Below are positions 1,298 through 38,370 of a stretch of 59,735 nucleotides of DNA, piece after piece. The translations under genes were made by a program, and so were the position numbers. Source of the stretch: Candidatus Woesearchaeota archaeon. Lineage in GTDB: Archaea; Nanobdellota; Nanobdellia; SCGC-AAA011-G17; UBA489. The notes beneath the pieces were generated by a model. That model searched no databases. It saw nothing but the letters and a program-made list of their open reading frames with translations, and had not been told where the DNA came from. The stretch's first letter is position 1, and each line of letters begins with the position of its first letter. The DNA lies in the NCBI GenBank assembly GCA_964390715.1, contig CAYMIM010000016.1, forward strand, positions 1-59,735. Direction: 5' to 3'.

Positions 1298-1421
1298 AAG
1301 AGAAATGAGATTTAATTCTATAAAAACTATTCTTTTTCCGAAATCTCTAAAAGCAATCTTTTTATAGGCTATTTTGCACTTATTTCGCACGCAGGGGTGG
1401 CGGAGCGGTCAAACGCGCCAG

Positions 1422-1455
1422 ATCTTGACTACAAGTTAAAAAGTCGAGAGGCGAA
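1422..1455 (+). other. tRNA-Leu intron 1 (34 nt, non-canonical position 30/31)
   Basis: The central helix is cgcc(1416-1419):ggcg(1450-1453). The 3-nt bulges are aga (1420-1422) and aag (1454-1456). An 8-bp inner helix pairs 1423-1430 with 1442-1449, closing an 11-nt loop. Confidence 0.75.
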
Positions 1456-1462
1456 GCTTAGG

Positions 1463-1476
1463 AGTTTGACTAAGTC
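1463..1476 (+). other. tRNA-Leu intron 2 (14 nt, canonical position 37/38)
   Basis: The central helix is ctta(1457-1460):taag(1471-1474). The bulges are gga (1461-1463) and tca (1475-1477). A 2-bp inner helix closes a 3-nt loop. The junction could shift by one A (1463 versus 1477) without changing the product. Confidence 0.7.
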
Positions 1477-1546
1477 ACCTGGAGGCTTAGTGCCTACCTA
1501 GGTTCGAATCCTAGCCCCTGCATTTTATTTTCTTATTTCTCAGAAA

Positions 1547-2430: not shown

Positions 2431-3303
2431 ATGGACAAAGAGAAAGCCTTGGTTGTTTTTCAAGATAAGAAGATTAGACGTATTTGGCATAAAAATGAGT
2501 GGTTTTATTCGGTTGTTGATATTATTGAAGTGCTTACTGATAGTCCTACGCCTCGACAGTATTGGGGTAAAATTAAGGATAGGGAGTTTATCAAGCTTGA
2601 ACTGTCCCCAATTTGGGTACTGTTGAAATTAATTGCAGAAGATGGAAAATTAAGAGAAACTGATTGTATAAACACTAAAAACGCCTTTAGACTTATTCAA
2701 TCTATTCCTTCTCCTAAAGCAGAACCTTTCAAACAATGGCTTGCACAAGTAGGACATGAACGCATACAAGAAATAGAAAATCCAGAATTAGCTCAGGACA
2801 GAGTGAAACAGTATTATGAACTTAAAGGTTATCCTAAGGACTGGATTGACAAACGGTTACGAGGCATAGTTATAAGACAAGAATTAACTGATGAATGGAA
2901 AAATAGAAATATAACTGAAGAAAAAGACTTCGCGATTCTCACGAATGAAATAAGTAAAGCAACTTTTGATAAAACTGTTCAAGAATATAAAGAATTTAAA
3001 GGACTCGAAAGAAAAAATAAAAATTTACGTGACCACATGACCAACTGGGAACTTATTCTTACTATGATAGGGGAAAAGGCAACAACAGATATTACTGTTA
3101 CCAGAGATTCTCAAGGCTTGGACGAACGCAAAGACTCGGCGCTTGAAGGCGGAACCATAGCCCAGCATACGAGAAAAGAACTTGAACAAAAAATAGGCAG
3201 ACCTCTTGTTTCACCAGATAATTTTCTCCACTTAGATACATCTAAGAAAAAACAAATTGAGAGTCCTAAAAAATGTTCATTGACTGATACTTCTAAAGCT
3301 TAG
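2431..3303 (+). CDS. Bro-N domain protein (DinD / phage antirepressor-like)
   Basis: The N terminus VFQDKKIRRIWHKNEWFYSVVDIIEVLTDSPTPRQYW fits the Bro-N fold signature. The C-terminal half is DinD-like. A TTTATAAA box lies at 2402-2409. Confidence 0.65.
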   Translation: MDKEKALVVFQDKKIRRIWHKNEWFYSVVDIIEVLTDSPTPRQYWGKIKDREFIKLELSPIWVLLKLIAEDGKLRETDCINTKNAFRLIQSIPSPKAEPFKQWLAQVGHERIQEIENPELAQDRVKQYYELKGYPKDWIDKRLRGIVIRQELTDEWKNRNITEEKDFAILTNEISKATFDKTVQEYKEFKGLERKNKNLRDHMTNWELILTMIGEKATTDITVTRDSQGLDERKDSALEGGTIAQHTRKELEQKIGRPLVSPDNFLHLDTSKKKQIESPKKCSLTDTSKA

Positions 3304-3332: not shown

Positions 3333-4130
3333 TTATTTTCTAGCAACTTCATCGACTTTTATCTGGAAAACTATTTTCGTCCAAATGAGCAAGACTATAC
3401 CTACGATCAAATAGAGTGTTAAGGGAGTTAAAGGCAAGAGAAAATCAATTCCTTTTGTGTAAGTGACGAAGAGTGAAGAGAGCAAATATAATACTAAACA
3501 TAACACGACTAAGTAGATAATAAAAGGAAGAATAATTCTGTGTGGTCTTTTTAGCATTTTTCCCGTGTGCTTGAGCGTTGTCAGGAAGGATTCATTGCCT
3601 AGACGCGTGAGCGCCGCATGCGTTACAAAGAAAAGCACGAAGAGCAATACTCCTTTTAAAATAAGCGTGTCTATTTCGTCGAAGATACTAAATGTTATTG
3701 GGATCATTAAGATGAGCAAGATAAACACTAAAGCTATAGCACTTATCACACAAAACTTCCAGAAAAACGATTTGAAAGACTTTATTGTCTTCTCTTTGAC
3801 GGTTTTCCAGACGATGCTTTGCGTCGCGCACCAGATGATGAACAACACTAGAGGGATGATGACATAGATGAAGAACATCGCTTCGTTGGTAAGACTTTGA
3901 AACTGATCTAAGAATTGCGCTACTTGCGCTTGACTCGCTCCTTGCGGTATTCCCGCCGCGTTATTAGCGAATCCTTGCAGTTGTGCTATGTAAGCTGCCA
4001 GCTTATTTCTTGCGAAGACTGTGAAGAAGAACGTCAAGAAAAAGAACGCCAACTCCGCTAATAAAAGCACGTAGATTTTCTCTTTCAAGAGTCTGAGGGA
4101 TTTTTTGAGGAACATGTTTAACGTAAACAT
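3333..4130 (-). CDS. Polytopic membrane protein (about 6 TM), last gene of the giant-protein operon
   Basis: Repeated 20-25 residue hydrophobic stretches. The start overlaps the stop of the giant gene by 13 nt; an alternative ATG is at 4113-4115. Confidence 0.55.
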   Translation of the reverse strand: MFTLNMFLKKSLRLLKEKIYVLLLAELAFFFLTFFFTVFARNKLAAYIAQLQGFANNAAGIPQGASQAQVAQFLDQFQSLTNEAMFFIYVIIPLVLFIIWCATQSIVWKTVKEKTIKSFKSFFWKFCVISAIALVFILLILMIPITFSIFDEIDTLILKGVLLFVLFFVTHAALTRLGNESFLTTLKHTGKMLKRPHRIILPFIIYLVVLCLVLYLLSSLFVTYTKGIDFLLPLTPLTLYLIVGIVLLIWTKIVFQIKVDEVARK

Positions 4131-7100
4131 CCTTGATTATAATTCTCAATCATTTTTGCTATGGTTTCATCGCCACATTGGGCGGTACGATATAACTCTT
4201 GAACATCCCATGAATCCGCATTCCATGTAAATGCTCTATCTATGAATCCCTCATTTAAAGCGCTTAGTAGCTGTGCATAATAAGCTCTTCTCAAGTCGAT
4301 CATTGATTGTGTTTTCCAAGGACTGCTTTGATCATTACAGTTGCTCACACCCTTCCAAGGATTTCTTATTGCGTCAACCATGTCACCACTTCCTCCACCT
4401 ATACCGATCTCAGAAAACTGTAGCGATATTTTTACAGGAATTTTAATATCGTTATTTTTAAATGTTTTGAGATAATACTCTTTCATCGCTTTAAAATCTC
4501 TTTGTTGAGGATAATAACTAACTGAATAATATGCACTCAATCCTAATATATCTACTACGTCGATTAATTTTTGGAATTCTATTTTTTCCTCATCAGAACT
4601 AAACAAATTAGCATCATCTCTTTTTCCGTTCAGATTATTAAAATTGGTGTTTATTCCTATTCTAACATTTTTTGGCATTTTTGCTCGGTATTCTTTAACT
4701 AAAGATAACCAATTAGATGTATACTCGAACAACGTTCTTCCCATCTCTCCTTGCATAGTGAAATCTACAATATTTGTACTTCTGGTTTGCGCTAATGCAT
4801 CATGAAGAGCTATCGCAATCGGTTCTAGAAGAACATCTTTATAAGAATAACCAGCTAAGTTTTCCACTGGGTTAAAAATATATCCATTCCGCCACGTTGT
4901 TCCTTCACCATCGCCTCCATAATCTAAATGAGGTCTTATAGACAAATCCATATCATTATCTAAAACTGCTGAAAAGCATGCCGTTAGCTTCTCTTTTATA
5001 TATTCAATGTTCTCATTGTCCACTATTTTATTTTCTGCATTTGGATAAGTCTTTGGCCACATATATCTTTTTACGCGGTCGTTTTTATCTATATATCCTT
5101 TTAGCGTTGGAATGATGTTTACTGCGGTTGCTCCTTTTTCTTTTGCTTTGAGCACAGTATTAGCACATTCTGCGTAATCTCTATCGATAAATAGACTAAT
5201 TGTCATTCCTAGTGGATGTTCTGCATTATTACCATTAGGATTACAACTAAGCAATTCAGTTTGTATCTCTTCTGAAGTGTCTTTGAGTTGTGTGTTTGTC
5301 GTGAAGATGCTATTTTCTTGCTGACTGGGATTCTTGTTTAATATTTTATTAAAATCACTACCACTGGTTGTTCCTGTAGAAGTTATAGTACTAGGATTTG
5401 TCGACTGGAAATTATTATCTGGTAAACTTTTTTCAGTAGATGTTTGTTTTTTCCTTGTTGGCATTGAAATAACATTCTTATTTGGTATTGCTCTCTTGAC
5501 TTTTATTGTTTCTGATGTTTTCTCTTGACCGTTTCTTGATAACGCAATAAAATAATATTCTTCATCCTCTTCGTCGTTTGTCAATAGAGCTTTCCAAGTT
5601 TGTTTATTAGGCTCGTTGAAAGGGATGCCAAGCGTAGTTATGATCTCATCTCTAGCAAGCCAATCCATTCTTAGTGTCTTTCTTACTTTCATCACTGTTG
5701 CCATTACTAATTCATCTTTACAATCTCCCCTCCACTCTAGCGAAAGATAAACATTTCTTCCCTGTAGAACTTCTACAATTACGTTTTTACCATCGCTCCA
5801 ATAGGTCTCTATAATACTGCAGACTTCTTTTGTAGTTTCTATTGTTTGTGTACTTGTTCCAGATTTTATAGTGAGCGTTAAAGCACTACTTTTTTGTCCA
5901 TTTACATTTATTACCTTTAAGTTATAAACATTTGGAGCAGCACCAGATGCTATTGTCAACTCAATTTCATTTTCATTAAGACGCTTCATAGGAAAATCCT
6001 TAGGATCGAGAATAGTACCGCTTGCTTCAATACCAAATATCTCATCAAATTTGCTTCCCTTGAGAATAATTTTTGTTTCTTTATCATTATTTATTTCTGT
6101 TTGACTTAAACTTGTTAATGCTGGTACTCTAACTGTTGTAGTTGTTACAGATGTTTGTTTTTTGAGACTTATTCGCGCTTCAAGTTCATAGGATTCAGCT
6201 AACTTAAACTGCATTCTTGCTCCATCAGGATCATCTAGGAGAGCACTACCTATCACTTGTTGATAGATCGCACGACCACTTTCAAAAGCATTTGGCGTAT
6301 TTGCGTTTTTGATAATGGCATCTGCTTCTTTTTCCTTGAGAGCAATATCCTCTTTCTTCAAAATATAATATCCTGGAATCGTTTCTCCTTGTTTTTCTGC
6401 TTCATTTACTACTTCTTGCGCAGTTTTCGCTAATGATGTATTTAGGTCAAGACGTGCGCTTACTTCCTTGATTGCATTCTTTGCTGCAGGCACATATAAC
6501 CAACACGTTCCTAAATCTCTTTCTCGATCATCTTCACCACATGTACCAACAGGAGACCATTTTACTTCATCACCACCAACACCAGGATTATATTTGGAAC
6601 ATTTTCTAATGATGCCAGATTGAATGAAACCACTTGAAACCGTACCTGCTGTGCCTTCTACCGCTCCTAGTTCTGTAATAGTTGGAGGACTTGTAGGAAC
6701 ACATTGTGCTGAAGTACTAATCTGTTTTTTTGCTTCATTCTGCGCAAATTGATCTGATATATAATCGATTGCAAAGCTCGTCGATACTTTTCCAAATCCA
6801 CATTCTACCTTTCGACCATAAATCTTGCTGTTAATTTCTACACAAATTTCTTTCATGCCTGATGGCAAGATAACATCTGGACTTTCATCTGCGAACGAAC
6901 CTCTGGGTAAACGTCTATTTTGCGTGATACCTTTACTGTCTTTCAAGACGTGTGGTTGAATAATAAATTGACCTGTGTAAGGATCAAGAGCTTGCATGTA
7001 GACTGAGTAAATTATATCTTCATTATCTCCTGCATAGATATGATATGTCACTTTGTACTGGCTTAAAGGCTGGTTACCTAAGTCTGAATAAGGAGCTTCA

Positions 7101-10100
7101 TCAAAGAACGCTGTGAACTGCGGAGGACTTTCTGGTTTTGAGATCTGATCAAACATATTGCCTAATCCCGGAGCTTTACCAAATATAGCTGCTTTACAAA
7201 TTTCTGTACCTAATTCTGGCAATGCTCCTCCATTATACATAGCGAACGTGTTCTTAGCATACGATTGTGTGAAATATTGCAGACTACCTACTGAGCTATC
7301 GACTGCTTTTTCAAATGATGAATATTCTCCACCACCACTTCCTGATTTACCTAAGAAGAAATTGACAATATTTCTGAAAATACCTTTCTTTGCACTGAAG
7401 AGAGCTAATCCTTCTTTCCATAAAATTTCACAAATACCATAAGAGCGTAGACGATCACAGATACCTACAGATCTTCCTGAAACTTTTGATGTGATTAAAC
7501 ATTGTCTATAGCCTTCGATGACTGAACGAATATTTTGCAGACCCGCATAGATACCTGATAAGCAAATCGGCATGACTACTCCACCTGGTTTACCGATACC
7601 GAGAGGTTCAATACCAAAGTTTGGCAAACATAAGAGTGCACTTCCAATGATTCCTGTCTGAATAACATTATCGACTTGCCATTCTCCACCTAAGTTACAA
7701 CGTGATGGGGGACAAATAACTGGATCACATGCGTTGAATAATAATTTACAATCTCCTGGACTCATGAATTCTGTGCAACTTGCACCAATACTAGCTGCTG
7801 CTGTGTCTATAGTATATGCACCTAATCCTCCACAATCTACGGATTGCAAAGGAATGACTTCACCACGGGAATATTTTCCACCTGCATTTTTCTTGTTGAT
7901 GACACCTACACAATCTTGTCCTTTTTTGATGTTGTCATAGATACCTTTATCGGGATTGTCTTTCTCGCTTTTTATTTTCTGATAGCGATCCATTAACTGT
8001 CCGTCAACGACGCCTAAATAGACATCACTAGGACTGCCCATACGACCATTCGGTTGGGATCGTTTATAGAGATCATATTTGGTTGGACGACCAGCAGTGT
8101 TGTACGAAACTTGCAGATAGTTGAAAGCGTCGATACTGATAAATTCTGTGTATCCTTTTTGACGACCTTGATCTAAAACTGCAACATTGGGATTGTGCTT
8201 GAATTCCCCTAATTGTGTTGTTGTGATTACACCATAAGACTCTTTGAGTTTTCCTATATAGTCATTATCCTTTTCTGTTGGAGCTCCCAGGCTTGTTCCT
8301 TTTTTTTGCACATCTTCTAGATGTGTCTTCATGTTAGTATTTATATCTGTTTCCCGTTGTAAAGGTAAAAAGCGAGTGCTATAGGTTCTCCATAAAAATG
8401 CATTATCTTCTTGTTTATCTTTAGGAGGATTAAATTTCTCCACAATATCTTTCTTGTATGTTCCTACAATTTTATCTGCATCAACTCCAGATGCTTTTAC
8501 CTCATCATAAGTTTTTATTCTTCCTTCTGTAAAGAATTTGTCAGTGAATTTCTTTTCTTCACTAGCTCTTGTCAATCTCGCATCTAGTTCATAATATTTG
8601 TCACGATATTGTTGATTACTTGGATCTTGGCTGACTAGATTTCCATAGTATCCTAGATTTTTCTTAGAATCATCATATTCTTTTCCTAAATCCTTGAATG
8701 CTTCCTGATTGTAATCTCCTTTGTTCGCTGCGTTTATTGCAGTTTGTGACTGAGAGATCATATGATCATATTCTGCCTGATTCTTGAAGACACACTCATC
8801 ATAACTAAGAGCTCTACAGTTTTTCGGATCTTCTGTGCCGAGATTTCTATACTCATCGTATTTCTTCTCGAAAGCTTCATTCGTTCTTTCTCTAGCAACT
8901 GCCCCTGAGCCTCCAAAGACACCTGAAAAGAAGTTTTTTACCCAGACAACTGCAAATGTGACGAAACAGAACTTCTTCCAATATTCTGTTATTTTTCCTA
9001 CATTGTCAATAATCTTATCCAATTTCGCCAACAAATCTTCAGTCTTAGCGATTTCATCTTCGTATGAGTCGGAGAACAAAGGAAGATCGAGAGCACGTTT
9101 CTCTATGGGAATGTGCAATGAGAATATTGCTTCTGAAAATGCAGCTTCGGTATTTGGACTTATCGTGATGGAGACTTCTTTTTTCATGTCAGCTTTTGTA
9201 AGTTTTATATTTCTTTTTGTATTTGTTCCTGTGTTGATTGATTTAGCTTGATTTTTTGTCAGTGATTCTTGCTGTTTTGTTTTATCTTCTATCAAAATAA
9301 TTTCACTGTCACGAATTTCCTTCACGAACCATTTTAGTTGGTCTTTATCATCTTGTAAGAGTTGTTCACCTTCACGATATTCTTTTGCTGGATATCCTTC
9401 CACTTCAATAGTCGCTTTTGATTTCTGACTATCAGGAACACTAGACCCTCCAATTAATGTTACATAGAAAATATCATTGGTACTTGGATCTTTGACTTCA
9501 GCGATTGCACTTTGGAAGTCTGATTGTAAACTGTTCAATAAGTCTAATAATTTCTGAATTGTTTCTTTTGTTGCGATAGATTGGTATTCTTCTGGTTTGT
9601 AGTTACGGAGCATAATTTCTAAGTGATTGATAGCACCTGCACGATCATTGATTCCAGGTAATAAGGCAAGATTAGCTATTTTCCAGTGCGCTGCTACAAC
9701 TTTATCCTTCACTACAGGATAAGCGTTAATGAGATGTTCATATTCAGCTATAGCAAGTCTGTAGAGCGTTACAGGACTGTCGGTTGCGACTATATTTGAA
9801 GGTTCTTGGGAAATGTTTTCTTGTTGTTTGAGTATATTTTCTAGAGGAGTTAAACGATTACTGACATCGTCTCTTGCTTTTATCAATAGACTTTTCTGAG
9901 CATTGTTTGTTTCTAGATTGATTGCTGCTTCCAATTCTACTCTTTTTTGCGCATAATAATTGCGAATGAGCTTGAGAAGGTTAAATGCCTGATTCTTCGT
10001 TGTTATTGTTACGCCATCTGTATTATCTATAAAATTTGTTTTTATTTTTTCTACAATATTGGAAAAATCTTTTGTTTCTTCTGTTTTTTCTTTCTTATCT

Positions 10101-11290
10101 GCAAGCGCATAATACTCCGTAATACTAGCTTTCAAAAGATCTTGTTTTTCTTTTTCCTTGGGGTTTTGTGTTACCTGCGTTGTAGAAGAAGACTGTATTT
10201 GATCTGGTCTTGGCACATCTGCTTTTGTTGCTTTGAGTGTTTTTGCTTCTCTGGTTACTTTGTTTTTGAGTGTAACTTCTAAAGAAGTTCCTTTGACGTC
10301 GCTAGCAATACTTTCGACATACCATGAAGACCCTTTATAGAGATCATCTCCTTCTGAAAGATATGCTGCTTGTGCATTGCCATTTCTATTCACTAAGAGA
10401 CGTACTTTATCGCTGATACTCTTAACACTATTGAGACGCAGGGTGTATCTGTCAAATAATCTTCCGTAGGTAATATATCCACCACGATTAGCGCTTAATG
10501 AACGGGAAGTTTGACCTACAGCCAGTGTAATAGGGGTTTGTGTCAATGCATTGAGTTGATTATCATAAACCATGAAAGAGGCTTGATTTCCTTTAACTTC
10601 TGTGGCTTGGAGATATCCTGCATAGAAACTGTGATCTTCTTTTGTTAGCTTCCATTCTTCTAAATTTTGTGCTGTTAAAATATCTTGGACAGGACCAAAG
10701 AATAATCCTTCTGATACATCGAAGAATATACGTGCGTCAATATCGAGAATAATTTCATCAGGCACTTTTCCTTCCTGTGGAATCTGACGAATAGGAATAA
10801 CTAATGTACCTAGATTATCATAAGTCAATTCGCGATTTTGAGGAACAATATGAGTGATACGACCAACAGATACTGGCAATCCTTGCGGAACCGTTGTGAC
10901 TTTTTGACTTCGAATAACAATGTTCCGAATTTTTGGCACGGTGATAGTAGGGTTAGTTGGTGTGCCGCTGATTAAAGCATGCACAAAAATACCAGAATCT
11001 TCCAATAAAGAACTACGAATAATACGTGGTTGATAATCGTCTACCTGGACAATAATATCTTCACCAATCAGATCTTCTGGACTATCTATAATGCCCTGTA
11101 AATCATCCAGTGTTTCATCGCGTATAGCTTCTCCTTGTCGTGTGAAATCATTTGGAATATCTTTAGAACGATCAATGGTTTGTTGTCCCGCTGAAGATGT
11201 TGGGTTGGCTGCATAAGCCTGCTCTAAGGGTAGCATCATGACTAGCAAAAGCAAGAAATACGTCGTCCACCTTTTTTTTTCTAAAAACAT
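4118..11290 (-). CDS. Giant secreted multi-domain surface protein (about 2390 aa)
   Basis: Uninterrupted ORF. The track start is TTG 11299; ATG 11290 gives MFLEKKRWTTYFLLLLVMMLPLEQAYA, a signal peptide. Also present are coiled-coil and Lys/Glu-rich segments, a hydrophobic segment (FCFVTFAVVWVKNFF), a Cys-rich core (about 6500-7910), an IPT/TIG-like domain (about 5860-6075) and a C-terminal TIM-barrel-like module (about 4118-5250). Confidence 0.85.
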   Translation of the reverse strand: MFLEKKRWTTYFLLLLVMMLPLEQAYAANPTSSAGQQTIDRSKDIPNDFTRQGEAIRDETLDDLQGIIDSPEDLIGEDIIVQVDDYQPRIIRSSLLEDSGIFVHALISGTPTNPTITVPKIRNIVIRSQKVTTVPQGLPVSVGRITHIVPQNRELTYDNLGTLVIPIRQIPQEGKVPDEIILDIDARIFFDVSEGLFFGPVQDILTAQNLEEWKLTKEDHSFYAGYLQATEVKGNQASFMVYDNQLNALTQTPITLAVGQTSRSLSANRGGYITYGRLFDRYTLRLNSVKSISDKVRLLVNRNGNAQAAYLSEGDDLYKGSSWYVESIASDVKGTSLEVTLKNKVTREAKTLKATKADVPRPDQIQSSSTTQVTQNPKEKEKQDLLKASITEYYALADKKEKTEETKDFSNIVEKIKTNFIDNTDGVTITTKNQAFNLLKLIRNYYAQKRVELEAAINLETNNAQKSLLIKARDDVSNRLTPLENILKQQENISQEPSNIVATDSPVTLYRLAIAEYEHLINAYPVVKDKVVAAHWKIANLALLPGINDRAGAINHLEIMLRNYKPEEYQSIATKETIQKLLDLLNSLQSDFQSAIAEVKDPSTNDIFYVTLIGGSSVPDSQKSKATIEVEGYPAKEYREGEQLLQDDKDQLKWFVKEIRDSEIILIEDKTKQQESLTKNQAKSINTGTNTKRNIKLTKADMKKEVSITISPNTEAAFSEAIFSLHIPIEKRALDLPLFSDSYEDEIAKTEDLLAKLDKIIDNVGKITEYWKKFCFVTFAVVWVKNFFSGVFGGSGAVARERTNEAFEKKYDEYRNLGTEDPKNCRALSYDECVFKNQAEYDHMISQSQTAINAANKGDYNQEAFKDLGKEYDDSKKNLGYYGNLVSQDPSNQQYRDKYYELDARLTRASEEKKFTDKFFTEGRIKTYDEVKASGVDADKIVGTYKKDIVEKFNPPKDKQEDNAFLWRTYSTRFLPLQRETDINTNMKTHLEDVQKKGTSLGAPTEKDNDYIGKLKESYGVITTTQLGEFKHNPNVAVLDQGRQKGYTEFISIDAFNYLQVSYNTAGRPTKYDLYKRSQPNGRMGSPSDVYLGVVDGQLMDRYQKIKSEKDNPDKGIYDNIKKGQDCVGVINKKNAGGKYSRGEVIPLQSVDCGGLGAYTIDTAAASIGASCTEFMSPGDCKLLFNACDPVICPPSRCNLGGEWQVDNVIQTGIIGSALLCLPNFGIEPLGIGKPGGVVMPICLSGIYAGLQNIRSVIEGYRQCLITSKVSGRSVGICDRLRSYGICEILWKEGLALFSAKKGIFRNIVNFFLGKSGSGGGEYSSFEKAVDSSVGSLQYFTQSYAKNTFAMYNGGALPELGTEICKAAIFGKAPGLGNMFDQISKPESPPQFTAFFDEAPYSDLGNQPLSQYKVTYHIYAGDNEDIIYSVYMQALDPYTGQFIIQPHVLKDSKGITQNRRLPRGSFADESPDVILPSGMKEICVEINSKIYGRKVECGFGKVSTSFAIDYISDQFAQNEAKKQISTSAQCVPTSPPTITELGAVEGTAGTVSSGFIQSGIIRKCSKYNPGVGGDEVKWSPVGTCGEDDRERDLGTCWLYVPAAKNAIKEVSARLDLNTSLAKTAQEVVNEAEKQGETIPGYYILKKEDIALKEKEADAIIKNANTPNAFESGRAIYQQVIGSALLDDPDGARMQFKLAESYELEARISLKKQTSVTTTTVRVPALTSLSQTEINNDKETKIILKGSKFDEIFGIEASGTILDPKDFPMKRLNENEIELTIASGAAPNVYNLKVINVNGQKSSALTLTIKSGTSTQTIETTKEVCSIIETYWSDGKNVIVEVLQGRNVYLSLEWRGDCKDELVMATVMKVRKTLRMDWLARDEIITTLGIPFNEPNKQTWKALLTNDEEDEEYYFIALSRNGQEKTSETIKVKRAIPNKNVISMPTRKKQTSTEKSLPDNNFQSTNPSTITSTGTTSGSDFNKILNKNPSQQENSIFTTNTQLKDTSEEIQTELLSCNPNGNNAEHPLGMTISLFIDRDYAECANTVLKAKEKGATAVNIIPTLKGYIDKNDRVKRYMWPKTYPNAENKIVDNENIEYIKEKLTACFSAVLDNDMDLSIRPHLDYGGDGEGTTWRNGYIFNPVENLAGYSYKDVLLEPIAIALHDALAQTRSTNIVDFTMQGEMGRTLFEYTSNWLSLVKEYRAKMPKNVRIGINTNFNNLNGKRDDANLFSSDEEKIEFQKLIDVVDILGLSAYYSVSYYPQQRDFKAMKEYYLKTFKNNDIKIPVKISLQFSEIGIGGGSGDMVDAIRNPWKGVSNCNDQSSPWKTQSMIDLRRAYYAQLLSALNEGFIDRAFTWNADSWDVQELYRTAQCGDETIAKMIENYNQGCLR

Positions 11291-11291
11291 T

Positions 11292-13268
11292 TTACTCAAG
11301 CGCTGGCTTCTTCACCTCATTATTTTGTTTTTGCACAGCTTCATAAACCTTACTTACCTCTTCGATAGACTTGGGTGTTGGACCACGGAGCGAATAAAAG
11401 GTTACCTTTCGCGCATTAGCAACTGCCGCTCTTGATATGGTCCAGCTTGTTGAGGAACCACCGCCAATGATCTGCTCTAATTTTGTAGCTTCGAATTTTT
11501 GCTTAGCACATTGTCGCGTTGTTAGCCCCGCAATACCTAAAACACCTTTCTGTGGAACATCATTACAAATCTCTATTTCTTTTTCTGGGAAATTAAATCC
11601 ACCAGCATTCTCGACAATAATTCGTGTGGTAACTAGCGTATCTCCTGGAATCAGCTTGATGGTTTTTTGATCTGGATAGAGGATTGTTGTAGCATATTTT
11701 TTCTCTTGATTGTCTAAAGTAATCATGATTTTTTCTGTCTGATAAGGAGAACGCTCTTGCTGATTATCGATTACTTTTATATCGAGAGTCACTTCTTTAA
11801 TAGGTTCGAGATAGACTACTACTTCTCCTGACGCAGTATTTGTTGAGACTGGCAATTCACCCCGATGGTATCCTTCTTTCTCCGCGATCATCACCCCATC
11901 AGAGCATTGTGGAAACATAGTTGTGAGCGCCGCTCCACGAGCATCCGCAAGGGTTACTCCACGATCACAGACTTGATCTAGACACTTATATGAGATTCTC
12001 GCGTTTGGCAACTCTTGGAGACTATCATCAGCACGATACGCCGCCGCGACTATAGTTAATTCTTTACCTGGATACTGGCAAATCTCCGCTTGAGCATCAA
12101 AACTTACAGGGGTGACCCGATTTTCCCGGGGTTGGTTATGGTCGATGACAACGAGTGTCGCGAACTGAAACATCGAGTCACCATCCTGCAAAGAAATGAG
12201 CATGGGAAACTTAAGATTGTAGACAAAATGGTTGTCATTCATACAGAACAGTGGCAGGAGGAAACGACTGGCGGCATTTTCAGCAGTGAATGGTTTTCCA
12301 CGGAGGATTTCTTCATTTTCTCCTACCACGTCCATGAGGAGCGGCCATTGCTCTTGATAACTAAAGAGAATACTCGCGTCTGTCTTTTTTGACAACGCGT
12401 CAATAACAAAGGATTTAGCGTCTTTCGCGTTTTCCCCATATCGCGATCCTTCAATGCGAAGCGTTGGGAAATTCAGAGCAAATATTTTCTTGAGCTCCTT
12501 TTGAACGTTTGTTTTTAGCCAAGCGCGCGGAGCGCATTGCGTGTCAATACCAGAGAAGGGAATAGTATCATAGACTGTCATCATGTCTATCGCTCGGTTC
12601 TCTAAGTAATAGTCTGTGCTTTCTGCTTGCATCAGTTCAACAGCAGTTTGGTAAAGTTTTCCCATCCTGGACTTGATGGTCTTCTTGAAAGTGGTAAATG
12701 TAAAGGAAAAATCATCTTTGGTCAAAGTCAAAGGATACTTTGTTTCTATTATCATCGTTTCTTCATTGATGATGATTTTGGAGCGTGGCTGCTCTTCACT
12801 GAATCCATACCCCTGATCTTTTAATGGCTTGAGATCATTGAGACATTGCTTTATGTTTTCATCGATATACGCCGCGAGTCCGGTTTCCATCTGCGCTTTG
12901 GTAGGAACTTGATTTTTCCGCAAACTATTTTCCGTCTCCGTCAACCAATAGGCTACCTGACCTGATCCTGTATTAAAAATATCAAGCGCATCTCCAAAAG
13001 GACTAATGAGTGATGGTACTTGTTCTTGCGGCAATTCCATATATCCTCCTTGTGCGCTCATGATCGCGATGCCTTGCGTCGCTAAAGTTTCCAAGCACGT
13101 GTCTACGTAGATTTTCGCGCGCTCCGCCTGTGGCGGGACTGTAAGAGATTTTTGCAGTTCTTGTCCTGTAAACGCTGAGAAAATTTCCTGACGGAAAGTA
13201 AAGACTGTCACACCTAACGCGAGGATTACAATACCCAGAATAATGAACGCCGTGACTTGTCCTTTCAT
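11292..13268 (-). CDS. N-terminally anchored extracellular protein (658 aa), uncharacterised
   Basis: ATG start. The N terminus MKGQVTAFIILGIVILALGV is a KGQ-plus-hydrophobic stretch resembling an archaeal class III (pilin-like) signal or anchor. Its stop is 1 nt before the giant-gene ATG, and its start overlaps the upstream stop (TAATG). Confidence 0.7.
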   Translation of the reverse strand: MKGQVTAFIILGIVILALGVTVFTFRQEIFSAFTGQELQKSLTVPPQAERAKIYVDTCLETLATQGIAIMSAQGGYMELPQEQVPSLISPFGDALDIFNTGSGQVAYWLTETENSLRKNQVPTKAQMETGLAAYIDENIKQCLNDLKPLKDQGYGFSEEQPRSKIIINEETMIIETKYPLTLTKDDFSFTFTTFKKTIKSRMGKLYQTAVELMQAESTDYYLENRAIDMMTVYDTIPFSGIDTQCAPRAWLKTNVQKELKKIFALNFPTLRIEGSRYGENAKDAKSFVIDALSKKTDASILFSYQEQWPLLMDVVGENEEILRGKPFTAENAASRFLLPLFCMNDNHFVYNLKFPMLISLQDGDSMFQFATLVVIDHNQPRENRVTPVSFDAQAEICQYPGKELTIVAAAYRADDSLQELPNARISYKCLDQVCDRGVTLADARGAALTTMFPQCSDGVMIAEKEGYHRGELPVSTNTASGEVVVYLEPIKEVTLDIKVIDNQQERSPYQTEKIMITLDNQEKKYATTILYPDQKTIKLIPGDTLVTTRIIVENAGGFNFPEKEIEICNDVPQKGVLGIAGLTTRQCAKQKFEATKLEQIIGGGSSTSWTISRAAVANARKVTFYSLRGPTPKSIEEVSKVYEAVQKQNNEVKKPALE

Positions 13269-13462
13269 TAATCTGACCTCCGGAGCATGACCACTTTTGA
13301 GCCGCCGAATTTGCGCACTTCGACTAGTTTTTTCTTTTCCAATGGCTTAAGGATGTCTGGGACAGTCGCGTTTTTAATGTCGAATCGCTTCGCTATAGCG
13401 CTTAGATTCACTAGATCATGCTTTTTCAAGAAGTCCACCAGCTCTTTTTCCGTTGGTATCAT
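13268..13462 (-). CDS. Small winged-helix DNA-binding protein, first gene of the giant-protein operon
   Basis: 64 aa. The sequence LVDFLKKHDLVNLSAIAKRFDIKNATVPDILKPLEKKKLVEV has an HTH-plus-wing pattern. Its stop overlaps the next ATG. Confidence 0.55.
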   Translation of the reverse strand: MIPTEKELVDFLKKHDLVNLSAIAKRFDIKNATVPDILKPLEKKKLVEVRKFGGSKVVMLRRSD

Positions 13463-13594
13463 TAAAGAAAACCCTTAAAAGCCTCTTTTTTTCTTTTCAA
13501 GCCTTTTTCAACCTCTTTTTTTCCATATAAACTCTTTAAAGAGCTTAGTAGCTAGAACTCTAAGAACTATATAAAGATTACTGTTTTTTCAGAA

Positions 13595-14818
13595 TTAGCG
13601 TCTCTGTGGTCTGCGATCGTTAAATCTGCGCTTCGCGCCAAAACTATTCCCTTTAAATCTTGGAGCGAAGCTTCTCTGCATGAAAGGCTGGAACTGGACA
13701 ATCTCATATTTCGGCAAGGGCAATTTCTCTATTTTCAAAGAACGATCATCCAAAACACGTCTAAAATTGTCATAATCTTTTTCAGAAACAAGCGTAACCG
13801 CAATACCTTCTTCACCAGCGCGAGCAGTGCGACCAATACGATGCACATATTCTTTTGGAGTTTTTGGCACGTCAAAGTTATAGACATGTGTCAACATCTT
13901 GATATCCAGACCACGAGCAGCAATGTCGCTGGCAACTAAGATTTCTGTATTCTTGCCTTGGAATGACTCCATCACTTGTTTTCTTCTGGATTGTGTTAGA
14001 CCACCATGGATAGCTTTCGCCTGCAAGCCATTTTTGTTGAGATTGTATTCCACTAAATCTACCGCTCTTCTTGTGCCGCAAAAGACAATAGCATAAGGAG
14101 CTTTTTCATTCTTTAGCAGATGAACTAGAAGGTGGAAACGATCACGAATAGGAACGTCATAGTAATACTGCTTGAGCAGACCTTTGTCCACTTGCTCTTT
14201 GGTTCTTATTATCTGCGGATCACGCATATGCTTTTGTATGATGTGCATAACTTCTTTGGGCATGGTAGCGCTGAACATTAACGTTTGTCGTTTGGTTGGC
14301 GTAGTTTTAATGATAAACTCGACGTCTTCGATGAATCCCATATCCAACATCTTATCCGCCTCATCCAAGACCAAAAATTTTATGGCATCCAAGCGGAGCA
14401 CTCTTCGCTGCAAGACATCTTTCATACGACCGGGCGTGCCTACAATAATATTCGCGTCGGGAATTTTTCTGATTTGTCCATCAATAGAAACACCACCATA
14501 GACTTTCAGGACGTTAATGGATTTGTACCGAGTTAATTTGCTACATTCCTCAGCGACCTGCTCACAGAGTTCTCTAGTTGGAACAAGCACTACCGCCTGT
14601 AATCCTTCTGAGGTTTTTATCTTCTCAATGATAGGAATAGCGAAAGCGAAAGTCTTTCCAGAGCCAGTGCTCGATTGACCAACGACGTCATGTCCTGCCT
14701 GTACCAGCGGGATAGCGCGTTCCTGGATGGGTGTAGGTTCTAGAATACCTATTTCTTTCAAAGATTTCCTGATGAATGGATCTGAGACTAACTTCTCGAA
14801 TGTCATACGTTCTTCCAT
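13595..14818 (-). CDS. DEAD-box ATP-dependent RNA helicase
   Basis: Motifs present: PTPIQ, GSGKT (Walker A), DEAD, SAT, HRIGRTAR, and a basic C-terminal tail. ATG 14818 lies 23 nt downstream of TTTATAAA (14841-14848). The longer track ORF start (14872) is less likely. Confidence 0.9.
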   Translation of the reverse strand: MEERMTFEKLVSDPFIRKSLKEIGILEPTPIQERAIPLVQAGHDVVGQSSTGSGKTFAFAIPIIEKIKTSEGLQAVVLVPTRELCEQVAEECSKLTRYKSINVLKVYGGVSIDGQIRKIPDANIIVGTPGRMKDVLQRRVLRLDAIKFLVLDEADKMLDMGFIEDVEFIIKTTPTKRQTLMFSATMPKEVMHIIQKHMRDPQIIRTKEQVDKGLLKQYYYDVPIRDRFHLLVHLLKNEKAPYAIVFCGTRRAVDLVEYNLNKNGLQAKAIHGGLTQSRRKQVMESFQGKNTEILVASDIAARGLDIKMLTHVYNFDVPKTPKEYVHRIGRTARAGEEGIAVTLVSEKDYDNFRRVLDDRSLKIEKLPLPKYEIVQFQPFMQRSFAPRFKGNSFGAKRRFNDRRPQRR

Positions 14819-14892: not shown

Positions 14893-15771
14893 TTAGAAAC
14901 TCAACTGACCACCAAAAGTGACTGTGAATGAATTACCAGCAAAATCAATATCCGCCTCTCTACCAAGAGGATGATCTTTTTTATTGAGAATATTCTGCGT
15001 GCCGAGTTCAAGAAATAGGTATCCCTTACCACTAGGGCGATATTTCAACGATCCTACTACTGAGCCAACAGTCATATCCACAAGATTGAACTCCTTTTCT
15101 CTACTAAGGTCACCATACGCAGAACCTGTTAAATATCCTCTTTCCGCAACCAGATCTTCTCTCCAAAGTTTATAACCCGCACCAAGCGTGAATGTGTCAG
15201 AAATCTTTGTTTCTAATCCTGTAAATACTTTTGGAATCAGAAATGAATTCCAATTAGGTCCAGCTTTTGTGTATAAAGAATAATAACTTGGATCGACAGT
15301 AGTGAAACCGCTGTCAGGATTGTCGGCAGCAGGCATACCACTAAGCTCCATTTCAACACCTGCCCTCAAAAATAGACTGTCCTTCACCAATCTCAGTTTC
15401 TCTCCATATCTCATAAACATACCAGTTCTTGGTCCCACTGTAACTTCATCATCCGTGATACGTGACGTTCCCAAGGAAAAATGATGTGGTAAGGTTCTTA
15501 TTTCTAAAGGTACATTTCTTACTTCACTTACTAACGAATGTCTATATACTGGGCCTATCTCCCAAAAACCTTCTACACTCTTGTTGGGATCTTCTTTATG
15601 TCCATCAGTTTGTGATAACGCTAAACCTACACCGCCTATCATAGGTCCTACTACTGAAAATGCTCGATGAGCCTCCGTTGATGAAGCGCATCCGCTCAGA
15701 AGAAGTGTAAGGGTAGCTGCTGTTGTCTTTTTACCTAAAGAATTTGATTTCATATTAGGAGCATACTTCAT
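14893..15771 (-). CDS. Putative lipoprotein with beta-strand-rich, OMP-like body ending in Phe
   Basis: Signal plus lipobox LLLSGC. Alternating hydrophobic and polar strands include FTLGAGYKLW, VVGSLKYR, YLFLELGT and FTVTFGGQLSF-COOH. Confidence 0.6.
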   Translation of the reverse strand: MKYAPNMKSNSLGKKTTAATLTLLLSGCASSTEAHRAFSVVGPMIGGVGLALSQTDGHKEDPNKSVEGFWEIGPVYRHSLVSEVRNVPLEIRTLPHHFSLGTSRITDDEVTVGPRTGMFMRYGEKLRLVKDSLFLRAGVEMELSGMPAADNPDSGFTTVDPSYYSLYTKAGPNWNSFLIPKVFTGLETKISDTFTLGAGYKLWREDLVAERGYLTGSAYGDLSREKEFNLVDMTVGSVVGSLKYRPSGKGYLFLELGTQNILNKKDHPLGREADIDFAGNSFTVTFGGQLSF

Positions 15772-15815
15772 AGGTAATAAGAATCTATCTCATTGCTAGT
15801 TAGTAGTAATTATAG

Positions 15816-15888
15816 TGGGCCCGACAGGATTTGAACCTGTGACCTCCTCCATGTCATGGAGACGTCATAACCGCTAGACTACGGGCCC
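15816..15888 (-). tRNA. tRNA-Val(GAC)
   Basis: The reverse complement is GGGCCCG-TA-GTCT-AGCGGTTA-TGAC-G-TCTCC-ATGACAT-GGAGG-AGGTC-ACAGG-TTCAAAT-CCTGT-CGGGCCC-A. It forms a 73-nt cloverleaf with no intron. Confidence 0.85.
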
Positions 15889-16522: not shown

Positions 16523-16608
16523 AGCCACCGGAGGGATTTGAACCCACGGCCCCCTGTTCTCTTGACGAGATACAAGACAGGAGCTCTACCAGGCTGAGCT
16601 ACAGTGGC
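16523..16608 (-). tRNA. tRNA-Thr(UGU) with 12-nt canonical intron
   Basis: The reverse complement is GCCACTG-TA-GCTC-AGCCTGGTA-GAGC-T-CCTGT-CTTGTA[TCTCGTCAAGAG]A-ACAGG-GGGCC-GTGGG-TTCAAAT-CCCTC-CGGTGGC-T. CTTG pairs with intron CAAG as the BHB central helix. There is one U-U mismatch in the T stem. Confidence 0.75.
16559..16570 (-). other. tRNA-Thr intron (12 nt, position 37/38)
   Basis: The 4-bp helix is C32-U33-U34-G35 paired with intron C7-A8-A9-G10. The 3-nt bulges are UA|U and AG|A. Confidence 0.65.
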
Positions 16609-38347: not shown

Positions 38348-38362
38348 TCCTTGAGGCAAACC

Positions 38363-38370
38363 TTTATATC
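38363..38370 (+). promoter_or_regulatory. TATA box (TTTATATC) for HerA-like ATPase
   Basis: The centre lies about 26 nt upstream of ATG 38393. Confidence 0.45.

What the first reader, a model, noticed from the sequence alone, without database searches (positions are those of the whole stretch)
3333..13462. Four-gene, translationally coupled operon: wHTH, 658-aa anchored protein, about 2390-aa Cys-rich giant, polytopic membrane protein
All four junctions are overlapping or separated by 1 nt (TAATG at 13268, TAA-A-ATG at 11290-11294, 13-nt overlap at 4118-4130), which implies co-translation. I can assign no component to a described secretion, adhesion or pilus system. The giant has a signal peptide, long coiled-coil or Lys/Glu-rich stretches and an internal hydrophobic segment. 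It also has a dense cysteine-rich core, an IPT/TIG-like domain and a C-terminal TIM-barrel-like module. The 658-aa protein starts MKGQVTAFIILGIV..., reminiscent of an archaeal class III (prepilin-like) signal. The operon occupies about 17 percent of this window. In small-genome archaea, investment on this scale usually marks cell-cell or host-interaction machinery.
Basis: partly seen in the sequence, partly recalled or inferred. Interest (0 to 1): 0.75.

Follow-up and report, generated by a model that had tools for sequence, protein, structure and literature searches.

The report
Woesearchaeal surface giant with anchored partner
This is a real four-gene operon of a tiny-celled Woesearchaeota archaeon: a prepilin-like membrane-anchored protein sits beside a 2,390-residue secreted giant, a pairing conserved in at least 409 related species, and relatives' giants carry enzymes that cut bacterial cell walls, so it probably works at the contact with other cells.

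Summary
Four same-strand genes (64, 658, about 2390 and 265 aa) are joined by TAATG, TAA-A-ATG and a 13-nt overlap (or a 2-nt gap). The window is from a Woesearchaeota-type DPANN archaeon.

The invariant unit is two genes, not four. A ~650-aa protein with a conserved class-III (prepilin-like) N-terminus lies directly upstream of the giant in 62 of 62 loci where both genes were readable, most often with a 4-nt overlap. The giant's Cys-rich core occurs in at least 409 species-level genomes. The 80 best inspected are Woese-, Pace- or Nanoarchaeota, or unclassified archaeal MAGs. The wHTH and the 6-TM gene belong to a subclade only.

Every giant has a signal peptide, an N-domain, a helical mid-region and a Cys-rich core. 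The core model has no Pfam, PDB or viral-structure match. A hypervariable tail follows. Recognisable tails in relatives are mostly murein hydrolases or binders (SLT, Amidase_3, M23, DPBB, PG_binding_1). The window's tail is IPT/TIG-like plus an uncharacterised, probably glycan-active module.

Best reading: an anchored surface scaffold that displays swappable adhesive or lytic payloads towards a partner or prey cell. The giant family was already noted (Castelle 2021). I found no description of the partner, scaffold or payload logic.

The parts
13463..13600 (-). Promoter and leader of the operon. It holds two TATA-like boxes (TTTATATA at 13568-13575; TTTATAT at 13525-13531), a palindrome CTCTTTAAAGAG (13532-13543) and two AAGAGG(T/C)T repeats before the ATG.
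   Evidence: Sequence read. The TATA box, the palindrome position (with changes on both arms in relatives) and the AAGAGG elements are conserved in an alignment with 5 relatives. Function as promoter or operator is inferred.
13268..13462 (-). 64-aa winged-helix protein, the putative local regulator. Its stop overlaps the next gene's start (TAATG).
   Evidence: About 25 wHTH families hit below threshold (MarR 23.1 bits against a 24.6 cut-off). A profile of 12 orthologues hits a MarR-family PDB chain at E=0.002. It is present directly upstream of the partner gene in 18 of 61 testable loci.
11292..13268 (-). 658-aa partner protein. It has a class-III (prepilin-like) signal or anchor helix (MKG|QVTAFIILGIVILALGV; 13194-13268), then alpha/beta domains, then three beta-sandwich domains. 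10 Cys, 8 of them invariant.
   Evidence: 24 homologues and alignment A3. The N-terminal motif [KR][GAS]-Q-[VAI]-[TS]-x-F-[VI]-I-x-[GA] occurs in 52 of 63 family members. AF2 model: pLDDT 78. Foldseek gives only generic Ig/CnaB-like stalk matches. The gene lies directly upstream of the giant in 62 of 62 loci.
4118..11290 (-). Giant secreted protein, 2390 aa from the ATG at 11288-11290. Order of parts: signal peptide, N-domain, helical mid-region, Cys-rich core, variable tail.
   Evidence: ORF. Start and signal peptide. The conserved portion is residues 1 to about 1700. All 63 giants with an intact N-terminus have an N-terminal hydrophobic h-region.
10160..11209 (-). Conserved N-domain of the giant (ORF residues 31-380).
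   Evidence: jackhmmer finds it in 69 loci, always in the same ORF as the core. No Pfam hit.
7940..10159 (-).
   Evidence: Found in 77 loci. The median maximum hydropathy of the segment is 1.15, and it reaches 1.6 in only 6 of 72 relatives, so it is not a TM helix. The only Pfam signal is a weak GAT hit.
6140..7942 (-). Cys-rich core (residues about 1120-1720). It contains FMSPxDCxxLFNxCDPVxCPxSRC, PESPPQF and CGFGKVST motifs. The model has a helical part, a beta-sandwich and a helical bundle.
   Evidence: 15 invariant Cys in alignment A1. 55 further relatives. 409 species genomes. AF2 pLDDT 72.8. No PDB or BFVD match at E of 0.001 or better. No PDB profile hit.
5855..6127 (-). IPT/TIG-like domain in the variable tail (residues about 1725-1815).
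   Evidence: No Pfam hit on the window sequence itself. It aligns with i-E=1.4e-29 (iterated jackhmmer profile) to P0008 residues about 1898-1998, which Pfam calls TIG (5.8e-06, above cut-off).
5519..5878 (-). Small two-Cys domain (residues about 1808-1927) that recurs, sometimes in tandem, in relatives' tails.
   Evidence: jackhmmer of the window tail against relatives' tails. No Pfam family.
4121..5350 (-). C-terminal payload: an uncharacterised module of about 365 aa with two invariant Glu. It is a putative TIM-barrel glycan-active enzyme.
   Evidence: 238 relatives in the exhaustive search. E202 and E314 are invariant, as are W153-R154-N155. No Pfam or PDB assignment, only a weak GH113 hit at 0.012. 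Bacterial members are fused to GH5 cellulase, fn3 or CBM_10. The one homologue whose source record names an organism (second-best hit overall) is from Bdellovibrionales. One other giant fragment, P0103, carries the same module.
3333..4130 (-). 265-aa polytopic membrane protein with about 6 TM spans. The true start is probably Met6 at 4113-4115.
   Evidence: Hydropathy. The gene lies directly downstream of the giant in 22 of 65 testable loci, always with 6-7 TM. Sequence conservation is very low, with only P93 near-invariant and no catalytic signature. No Pfam, NCBIfam or PHROG hit.

Best explanation
The locus encodes a lineage-specific cell-surface apparatus of Woese-, Pace- and Nanoarchaeota (DPANN).

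Proposed arrangement:
- The 658-aa protein is inserted into the archaeal membrane through a class-III (prepilin-like) N-terminal helix. It projects a stalk of beta-sandwich domains.
- The giant is exported by its Sec-type signal peptide and held at the surface, most simply by the co-expressed partner.
- The giant's conserved N-domain, helical mid-region and disulfide-rich core form a constant scaffold.
- Its C-terminal tail is an exchangeable payload that contacts the envelope of another cell.

In relatives, the payloads that can be identified are mostly enzymes or binders for bacterial peptidoglycan. In this window the payload is an IPT/TIG-like domain, a small Cys domain and an uncharacterised, probably glycan-active catalytic module.

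The apparatus would therefore attach the archaeon to a partner or prey cell, probably a bacterium, and locally open its wall.

The 64-aa winged-helix protein is a local regulator. The 6-TM protein is a subclade-specific membrane accessory for anchoring or assembly.

What is shown: the operon anatomy, the conservation and tight spacing of the pair, the constant-scaffold and variable-payload architecture, and the payload identities in relatives.

What is inferred: surface location, partner-giant binding, prepilin-peptidase processing, catalytic activity of the window's payload, and the identity of the target cell.
For: Operon anatomy is confirmed.

The partner gene is directly upstream of the giant in 62 of 62 loci. 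The spacing is -4 nt in 29 loci and between -14 and +7 nt in 49. The pairing holds in the most distant relatives (hhalign probability 100).

The family occurs in at least 409 species-representative genomes. The top 80 are Woese-, Pace- or Nanoarchaeota, or MAGs labelled only 'archaeon'.

The chromosomal neighbourhood is conserved and housekeeping (LSM, ribosomal S8e, TFIIB), so the pair is inherited vertically and is not a mobile element. There is no phage-family hit.

All giants share N-domain, mid-region and core, with tails of 0-1850 aa.

Pfam on 89 tails and inserts gave SLT x9, Amidase_3 x3, DPBB_1, PG_binding_1, Lysozyme_like, M23, SH3_3, TIG x2, Big domains, trypsin and GDSL lipase. A separate scan found OmpA-like and M23 domains. 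SLT payloads keep the catalytic ES...GLMQ motif.

All 63 giants with an intact N-terminus have a signal-peptide-like N-terminus. The many invariant Cys fit an extracellular, disulfide-bonded protein.

The partner's N-terminal motif is conserved in 52 of 63 members. Its model is an anchor helix followed by Ig-like stalk domains.

The window's C-terminal module has two invariant Glu, and its bacterial relatives are fused to GH5 or CBM domains.

The same window also encodes a signal-bearing NlpC/P60 peptidase.

The literature independently proposed bacterial-wall attachment for large SLT-bearing proteins of these lineages (PMC8204110; PMC9723730).
Against: There is no experimental or expression evidence. 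No localisation predictor was available, so signal peptides were judged by eye and by hydropathy.

Most tails and inserts have no recognisable domain. At most about a quarter of the 89 segments match a murein-related family. The payload logic therefore rests on a minority.

The window's own payload is not a known murein hydrolase and its fold was not modelled.

The scaffold's folds match nothing known, so nothing shows how it would anchor or act.

No pilus-assembly ATPase is linked to the locus (1 of 86 loci), and no prepilin peptidase was found among the window ORFs I scanned.

Near-universal, syntenic, core-genome conservation fits a structural envelope protein at least as well as an attack device.
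Confidence: 0.55

Rival explanations
1. The pair is the main structural cell-envelope (S-layer-type) system of these archaea. The 658-aa protein would be the membrane stalk and the giant the outer canopy, analogous to SlaB and SlaA of Sulfolobales. The enzymatic tails would be secondary decorations.
For: The pair is conserved across at least 409 species (single-copy status was not measured), at a fixed chromosomal place next to housekeeping genes. It is a two-gene unit of an anchor plus a large secreted protein with tight coupling. The partner model is a TM helix followed by beta-sandwich stalk domains. I identified no other S-layer candidate in the window.
Against: There is no sequence or structure similarity to any solved S-layer protein. 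The core keeps roughly 30-55% identity to the window protein across Woese-, Pace- and Nanoarchaeota relatives, whereas S-layer proteins usually diverge fast (general knowledge). Sizes of 1,600-3,700 aa and catalytic murein-hydrolase tails are unusual for lattice proteins. Abundance was not tested.
Confidence: 0.2
2. The 658-aa protein is a true type-IV-pilin-like subunit that is cleaved by a prepilin peptidase and built into a fibre. The giant would be a fibre-associated tip adhesin or enzyme.
For: The conserved [KR]-G/A-Q-x-T/S-x-F-hydrophobic N-terminus fits the archaeal class-III signal pattern (the pattern is recalled from Szabo et al. 2007). The best Foldseek hits are pilus adhesins and pilins of Gram-positive bacteria, though with TM-scores of only 0.11-0.13.
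Against: No PilB/T2SSE ATPase is linked to the locus (1 of 86 loci). No other protein in the window has this N-terminus. At about 70 kDa the protein is far larger than typical pilins. Archaeal class-III signals also occur on non-pilus surface proteins such as the Sulfolobus sugar-binding proteins (general knowledge).
Confidence: 0.1
3. The giant is a released bacteriolytic or polymorphic toxin, a secreted weapon against competing bacteria, rather than a cell-bound attachment device. The neighbouring genes would aid its export.
For: It has a constant N-terminal region and a variable C-terminal enzymatic end, like bacterial polymorphic toxins. Archaeal peptidoglycan hydrolases that kill bacteria are documented, and PGH homologues are frequent in Nanoarchaeota (PMC12352652).
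Against: No immunity-like gene varies together with the tail. The constant part of about 1,700 aa is far larger than a delivery domain needs. The strictly coupled membrane-anchored partner argues for retention at the cell. Many tails are adhesion-type domains (TIG, Big) or absent (tails of 0-30 aa in several loci).
Confidence: 0.1

Closest known systems
[quoted passage not shown] 2021, PMC8204110; also Vigneron et al. 2022, PMC9723730)
   Same: Same lineages, same size class (up to about 3,000 aa) and predicted extracellular. SLT-bearing proteins (P0054, P0056; loci L025, L034, L054, L056, L059, L066, L075, L084) contain the same Cys-rich core. The full-length loci among them have the same partner gene upstream. 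This is very probably the same family.
   Different: SLT is not family-defining. It is found in about 10 of about 85 giants and is absent from the window protein. The constant scaffold, the class-III-signal partner, the regulator and the 6-TM gene are not described in the papers I could read. Identity with fam00969 could not be checked, because the term was not found in the supplementary files held as text.
SlaA/SlaB S-layer system of Sulfolobales
   Same: Two adjacent genes: a membrane-anchored stalk protein with beta-sandwich domains and a large secreted protein that would sit on it.
   Different: No sequence or fold match. SlaB is anchored by its C-terminus, whereas this partner is anchored by a prepilin-like N-terminus. 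This giant is Cys-rich and carries enzymatic tails. Comparison made from general knowledge.
Bacterial polymorphic toxin and surface-display proteins (CdiA, Rhs, MafB, large RTX-type adhesins)
   Same: A constant N-terminal body with a swappable C-terminal functional module. Large size. A role in contact with other cells.
   Different: No homology, no immunity gene, and no dedicated secretion system (TpsB, T6SS, T1SS) at the locus. The payloads here are wall hydrolases and binders, not intracellular toxins.
SPEARE giant surface proteins of Nanohaloarchaeota (Hamm et al. 2019; recalled, not re-read)
   Same: Giant, multi-domain, predicted surface proteins of a DPANN episymbiont, thought to mediate host attachment and envelope breaching.
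   Different: Different lineage, different domains (serine protease, adhesion, restriction endonuclease), an archaeal host, and no similarity detected in any search here.

Membership tests
Pace/Woesearchaeota large SLT-domain extracellular protein family (fam00969, Castelle 2021) | Very large protein (up to about 3,000 aa) restricted to Pacearchaeota and Woesearchaeota | tested here: met
   The window protein is 2390 aa. Relatives are 1,600-3,700 aa. All 80 best genome hits are Woese-, Pace- or Nanoarchaeota MAGs, or MAGs labelled only 'archaeon'.
Pace/Woesearchaeota large SLT-domain extracellular protein family (fam00969, Castelle 2021) | [quoted passage not shown] | tested here: not met
   No SLT hit in the window protein at E up to 1 or 10. 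SLT is present in relatives that share the core. It is therefore an accessory payload, not a feature of every member.
Pace/Woesearchaeota large SLT-domain extracellular protein family (fam00969, Castelle 2021) | Listed as a member of that published cluster | not testable with these tools
   The term fam00969 was not found in the two supplementary files held as text.
Archaeal class-III (type IV prepilin-like) signal peptide proteins | Short basic N-terminus, then [KR]-[GA] followed by a hydrophobic stretch of about 20 residues | tested here: met
   MKG|QVTAFIILGIVILALGVTVF. The motif is conserved in 52 of 63 family members, with Q+1, T/S+3 and F+5 nearly invariant. The consensus pattern itself is recalled from the literature.
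Archaeal class-III (type IV prepilin-like) signal peptide proteins | Cleavage by a PibD/FlaK/EppA-type prepilin peptidase | not testable with these tools
   No Peptidase_A24 was found among the window ORFs scanned, but not all ORFs were scanned and the window covers only part of the genome.
Archaeal class-III (type IV prepilin-like) signal peptide proteins | Genomic linkage to a pilus assembly ATPase and platform (PilB/T2SSE, PilC) | tested here: not met
   A T2SSE gene lies within 10 kb in only 1 of 86 loci.
S-layer anchor and canopy pairs (SlaA/SlaB type) | Sequence or fold similarity to known S-layer proteins | tested here: not met
   No Pfam, PDB-sequence, PDB-profile or Foldseek match to an S-layer protein.
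S-layer anchor and canopy pairs (SlaA/SlaB type) | Forms the abundant two-dimensional envelope lattice | not testable with these tools
   This needs proteomics or cryo-ET.
Clan GH-A type (beta/alpha)8 glycoside hydrolases (for the C-terminal module) | Two catalytic Glu, on strands beta4 and beta7 | tested here: inconclusive
   Two invariant Glu lie 112 residues apart (QGEMG and FSEIGIGG) in 34 sequences.
Clan GH-A type (beta/alpha)8 glycoside hydrolases (for the C-terminal module) | Match to a curated GH family | tested here: not met
   No Pfam hit on the window's module. One of 34 relatives hits GH113 at E=0.012. No PDB hit.
Winged-helix (MarR-like) DNA-binding proteins (for the 64-aa protein) | Match to wHTH family models | tested here: inconclusive
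   MarR scores 23.1 bits against a 24.6 cut-off, and about 25 wHTH families score below threshold. A profile of orthologues hits a MarR-family PDB chain at E=0.002. This is consistent but below the curated cut-offs.
IPT/TIG domain (tail residues about 1725-1815) | Match to PF01833 | tested here: inconclusive
   No direct Pfam hit. The segment is homologous (i-E=1.4e-29, iterated jackhmmer) to the segment of P0008 that scores 26.7 bits against a 20.9 cut-off on PF01833.

The most novel reading that the evidence does not exclude
The constant part of the giant (N-domain, helical mid-region and disulfide-rich core, with no structural relative in PDB or BFVD), together with its prepilin-like partner, is a previously undescribed molecular machine that defines Woese-, Pace- and Nanoarchaeota. 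It would be an envelope-breaching or contact organelle through which these ultra-small archaea dock onto bacteria. The swappable tail would determine which envelope is attacked, so payload type could be used to read the host range of uncultured DPANN archaea.
Probability: 0.25. Interest if true: 0.85.

Novelty: new variant of a known kind. Interest (0 to 1): 0.62.

Why it matters
Woesearchaeota and Pacearchaeota are among the most widespread uncultured archaea. Who their hosts are, and how they contact them, is an open question.

The only molecular lead so far was the occasional 'large murein transglycosylase' annotation. This analysis shows that such proteins are one payload variant of a lineage-wide two-gene module, found in at least 409 species, at a fixed chromosomal place, always with a prepilin-like anchored partner. 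The module's constant 1,700-residue scaffold has no known fold.

This gives three concrete leads:
- A target for structure determination, antibodies or cryo-ET labelling in enrichment cultures.
- A way to classify genomes by payload type (murein hydrolase, amidase, glycanase-like, adhesion-only).
- A testable link between payload type and partner organisms.

It also warns that scoring 'SLT present or absent' in DPANN genomes misses most members of the system.

Tried and rejected
- Known-family assignment. Pfam, NCBIfam and PHROGs on all four proteins and on separate giant segments gave nothing except sub-threshold wHTH hits.
- PDB sequence and profile searches for the giant, the core, the partner and the C-terminal module gave nothing meaningful.
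- Foldseek of the core model against PDB and BFVD matched only a generic beta-sandwich. No hit reached E of 0.001.
- Foldseek of the partner against PDB gave generic Ig/CnaB stalk matches with TM-scores of 0.11-0.13.
- Mobile element or virus. Rejected: no phage families, and the housekeeping neighbourhood is conserved.
- Internal TM anchor in the giant. Rejected: the motif carries an invariant K-N and is not hydrophobic enough in 66 of 72 relatives.
- Linkage to a type IV pilus ATPase. Rejected.
- The 6-TM protein as a prepilin peptidase, sortase-like enzyme or other enzyme. No support: no Pfam hit and no conserved polar residues.
- RHH fold for the small ORF that replaces the wHTH in Pace-like loci. 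Not verified.
- Checking fam00969 membership in the Castelle 2021 supplement. The term was not found in the files held.
- Metaproteomic evidence in a Pacearchaeota-rich chimney paper (PMC11537232). Only unnamed hypothetical proteins are reported.

Full report
**1. Observation**

The window is archaeal. It encodes MCM with an intein, topoisomerase VI, RFC and CDC48, and it has intron-containing tRNAs. GC content is about 38%.

The closest relatives of the genes studied are MAGs named Candidatus Woesearchaeota. The core is up to 77% identical to them and the partner protein about 70%.

I read the junctions from the sequence:
- TAATG between the 64-aa and 658-aa genes.
- TAA-A-ATG between the 658-aa gene and the giant.
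- The giant's TAA is overlapped by the first ATG of the 265-aa gene (13 nt), or followed 2 nt later by the Met6 ATG, which is where relatives start.

The giant most likely starts at the ATG at 11288-11290, giving 2390 aa. This start produces a Sec-type signal peptide (KKRW-TTYFLLLLVMMLPL-EQAYA|ANP) that matches relatives' N-termini. The database gene call of 2373 aa truncates the signal peptide.

An open frame of this length at this GC content cannot arise by chance (about e^-168).

**2. What the four proteins are not**

Pfam, NCBIfam and PHROGs give nothing for the three large proteins. PDB sequence and profile searches also give nothing.

The 64-aa protein hits about 25 winged-helix families just below their cut-offs. 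A profile of its orthologues hits a MarR-family structure at E=0.002.

**3. Relatives and synteny**

The giant has only 14 full-length hits in the word-indexed database. Its Cys-rich core is much more widespread:
- A profile of the core finds 55 more proteins, mostly fragments. Where named, nearly all are Nanoarchaeota, Woesearchaeota, Pacearchaeota or Parvarchaeota (one is labelled Thaumarchaeota, one Patescibacteria).
- A scan of one genome per GTDB species finds 409 genomes. The best 80 are Woese-, Pace- or Nanoarchaeota, or MAGs labelled only 'archaeon'.

I called six-frame ORFs in 86 loci and searched them with iterated profiles. The results:
- A homologue of the 658-aa protein lies immediately upstream of the giant, on the same strand, in all 62 loci where both genes are readable. 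The spacing is -4 nt in 29 loci and between -14 and +7 nt in 49.
- Profile-profile comparison confirms that the upstream genes in the most distant loci (L004, L006) belong to the same family (probability 100).
- The 6-TM gene follows the giant in 22 of 65 testable loci.
- The winged-helix gene precedes the partner in 18 of 61 testable loci. Both belong to the Woesearchaeota-like branch nearest the window.
- In Pace-like loci a different 45-60-aa ORF (MKKYLLLIEDEKLWEKFKEII...) occupies the regulator's position and overlaps the partner's start. Its fold could not be verified.

Flanking genes are housekeeping: LSM, ribosomal protein S8e and TFIIB. They recur in 27-43 loci. The pair is therefore a vertically inherited core locus, not a mobile element.

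**4. Anatomy of the giant**

Every full-length relative has the same order of parts:
- Signal peptide.
- N-domain of about 350 aa.
- Mid-region of about 700 aa.
- Cys-rich core of about 600 aa.
- A tail of 0-1850 aa that shares nothing across the family.

It is not a membrane span.

The core has 15 Cys that are invariant across nine divergent sequences, and motifs such as FMSPxDCxxLFNxCDPVxCPxSRC and PESPPQF.

An AlphaFold2 model built from 50 sequences has a mean pLDDT of 72.8. It shows a helical Cys-rich part, a beta-sandwich, a small Cys-rich beta unit and a helical bundle. Foldseek finds no PDB or viral-protein match at E of 0.001 or better. Only the beta-sandwich draws generic hits.

**5. 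The payloads**

I scanned 89 tails and inter-domain inserts from the family against Pfam. The hits were:
- SLT in 9 segments.
- Amidase_3 in 3.
- DPBB_1 (lytic transglycosylase fold), PG_binding_1, Lysozyme_like, Peptidase_M23 and SH3_3.
- TIG in 2, plus Big domains.
- A trypsin-like protease, a GDSL lipase and transglutaminase-like domains.

Earlier scans had shown SLT in P0054 and P0056, OmpA-like in P0047 and M23 in P0011. SLT payloads keep the catalytic ES...GLMQ motif. SLT-bearing giants of full length have the partner gene upstream like all the others.

The recognisable payloads therefore point mainly at bacterial peptidoglycan, which archaea do not make. Most tails remain unassigned.

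**6. The window's own tail**

Residues about 1725-1815 are homologous to the segment of relative P0008 that Pfam calls IPT/TIG. Pfam misses the domain in the window protein itself.

Residues about 1808-1927 form a small two-Cys domain that recurs in relatives' tails.

The last approximately 365 residues form a module with 238 relatives in the exhaustive search. Most are stand-alone proteins of about 400 aa. In 34 aligned members two Glu are invariant (QGEMG and FSExG), as is a W-R-N triad.

No Pfam or PDB family matches the module. The only signals are weak TIM-barrel-type hits, for example GH113 at 0.012 in one member.

Longer bacterial members are fused to GH5 cellulase, fn3 or CBM_10 domains. 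The one homologue whose source record names an organism (the second-best hit overall) is from a Bdellovibrionales bacterium. One other giant fragment, P0103, carries the same module after its core.

I read the module as a probable glycan-active enzyme of an undescribed family. The TIM-barrel fold is not demonstrated.

**7. The partner and the membrane protein**

The 658-aa family has 24 hits in the database search and 65 in the loci. Its N-terminus is strikingly conserved: M-(K/R)1-3-(G/A/S)-Q-(V/A/I)-(T/S)-x-F-(V/I)-I-x-(G/A), followed by a hydrophobic helix. The motif is present in 52 of 63 members.

This fits the archaeal class-III (prepilin-like) signal pattern, which I recall from the literature. 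Cleavage cannot be tested here.

The AlphaFold2 model (pLDDT 78) shows the N-terminal helix, alpha/beta domains and three beta-sandwich domains. Foldseek returns only low-TM matches to Ig/CnaB-type stalks of Gram-positive pilus adhesins.

Eight Cys are invariant. No pilus ATPase is linked to the locus, and no other ORF in the window has this N-terminus.

The 6-TM protein is poorly conserved. Only one Pro is near-invariant and no polar signature is conserved. This argues for a structural rather than catalytic role.

**8. Regulation**

Upstream of the winged-helix gene there is a TATA box (TTTATATA, 13568-13575) about 105 nt before the ATG. A second TATA-like element lies at 13525-13531.

Between them is a palindrome (CTCTTTAAAGAG). 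In relatives it changes on both arms: CTCTTGCAAGAG in L007 and GGTTTTAAAGCC in L010. Two AAGAGG(T/C)T repeats follow in the leader.

An operator for the winged-helix protein is plausible but untested.

**9. Interpretation**

The best-supported model is an anchored surface scaffold that displays exchangeable adhesive or lytic payloads towards another cell, probably a bacterium.

The model explains:
- the strict pairing and tight spacing of a membrane-anchored protein with a secreted giant;
- the extracellular hallmarks (signal peptides, many invariant Cys);
- the constant-body and variable-tail design;
- the murein-directed payloads.

It also agrees with a signal-bearing NlpC/P60 peptidase elsewhere in the window.

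The main rival is a structural envelope (S-layer-like) role. The near-universal, syntenic conservation fits that equally well. The two readings are not exclusive.

A true pilus role and a released-toxin role are less likely, for the reasons given under the rival explanations.

**10. Relation to the literature**

Castelle et al. 2021 (PMC8204110) reported a family specific to Pacearchaeota and Woesearchaeota (fam00969). [quoted passage not shown]

Vigneron et al. 2022 (PMC9723730) and others repeat the 'large murein transglycosylase' annotation. A 2025 paper found peptidoglycan-hydrolase homologues, including M23, to be prominent in Nanoarchaeota (PMC12352652).

The giant here is very probably a member of that family, although I could not check the published cluster list.

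The following points appear new relative to the papers I could read:
- SLT is only one of many payloads and is absent from most members, including this one.
- The family is defined by a constant scaffold of about 1,700 aa, whose Cys-rich core (the only part modelled) has no known fold.
- The giant is always preceded by a prepilin-like anchored partner.
- Small DNA-binding-type genes and, in one branch, a 6-TM gene complete an operon.

I therefore rate the finding a new variant of a known kind, with moderately high interest.

Noticed in passing
window 1391-1522 (+) and 16523-16608 (-): Rfam calls two tRNAs of 132 and 86 nt, presumably intron-containing. ARAGORN missed both and found only tRNA-Val at 15815-15888.
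   Followed up: no
window 24365-27997 (-): The MCM helicase gene (1210 aa) is interrupted by an intein with a LAGLIDADG homing-endonuclease signature.
   Followed up: no
window 44917-45735 (-): An NlpC/P60-family peptidase with a signal-like N-terminus and the catalytic DCSG motif is encoded in this archaeal genome. It is a second protein aimed at bacterial cell-wall peptides.
   Followed up: partly
window 14893-15771 (-): A 292-aa ORF with a lipobox-like N-terminus (LTLLLSGC|ASS) and no Pfam family lies between the DEAD-box helicase and tRNA-Val.
   Followed up: no
window 2431-3303 (+); L001 14446-15294: A Bro-N domain protein with a strong match to phrog_15286 (4.3e-85) sits next to the operon on the opposite strand, both here and in the 68%-identical relative L001. 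It is the only virus-flavoured gene near the locus.
   Followed up: partly
L051, L053, L055, L057, L059, L069, L073, L077, L082 (just upstream of the partner gene): In Pacearchaeota-like loci the winged-helix gene is replaced by an unrelated 45-60-aa ORF, MKKYLLLIEDEKLWEKFKEII..., that overlaps the partner gene's start. Its strand-helix-helix pattern looks ribbon-helix-helix-like, but a PDB profile search gave no support.
   Followed up: partly
window 13525-13575 (-) and aligned relatives: There is a conserved TATA box, a palindrome whose two arms change together between relatives, and duplicated AAGAGG(T/C)T elements in a leader of about 105 nt. This is a candidate operator or leader structure.
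   Followed up: partly
window 4121-5350 (-); proteins P0094-P0243: The C-terminal module defines an unannotated family of at least 238 proteins at 50% clustering. It has two invariant Glu. It occurs stand-alone (for example in a Bdellovibrionales bacterium) or fused to GH5, fn3 or CBM_10. This is a candidate new glycoside-hydrolase-like family.
   Followed up: partly
L046, L047, L048, L064, L070 (downstream of the giant): In several loci a second large ORF (437-1109 aa, one TM-like segment) starts 1-7 nt inside the end of the giant, which there has almost no tail. The payload may be encoded as a separate gene, or the giant may be split by a frameshift.
   Followed up: no
window 37322-39709: A SurA-like PPIase (345 aa, minus strand) is divergently adjacent to a HerA/DUF87-type ATPase (452 aa, plus strand), overlapping it by 9 nt.
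   Followed up: no
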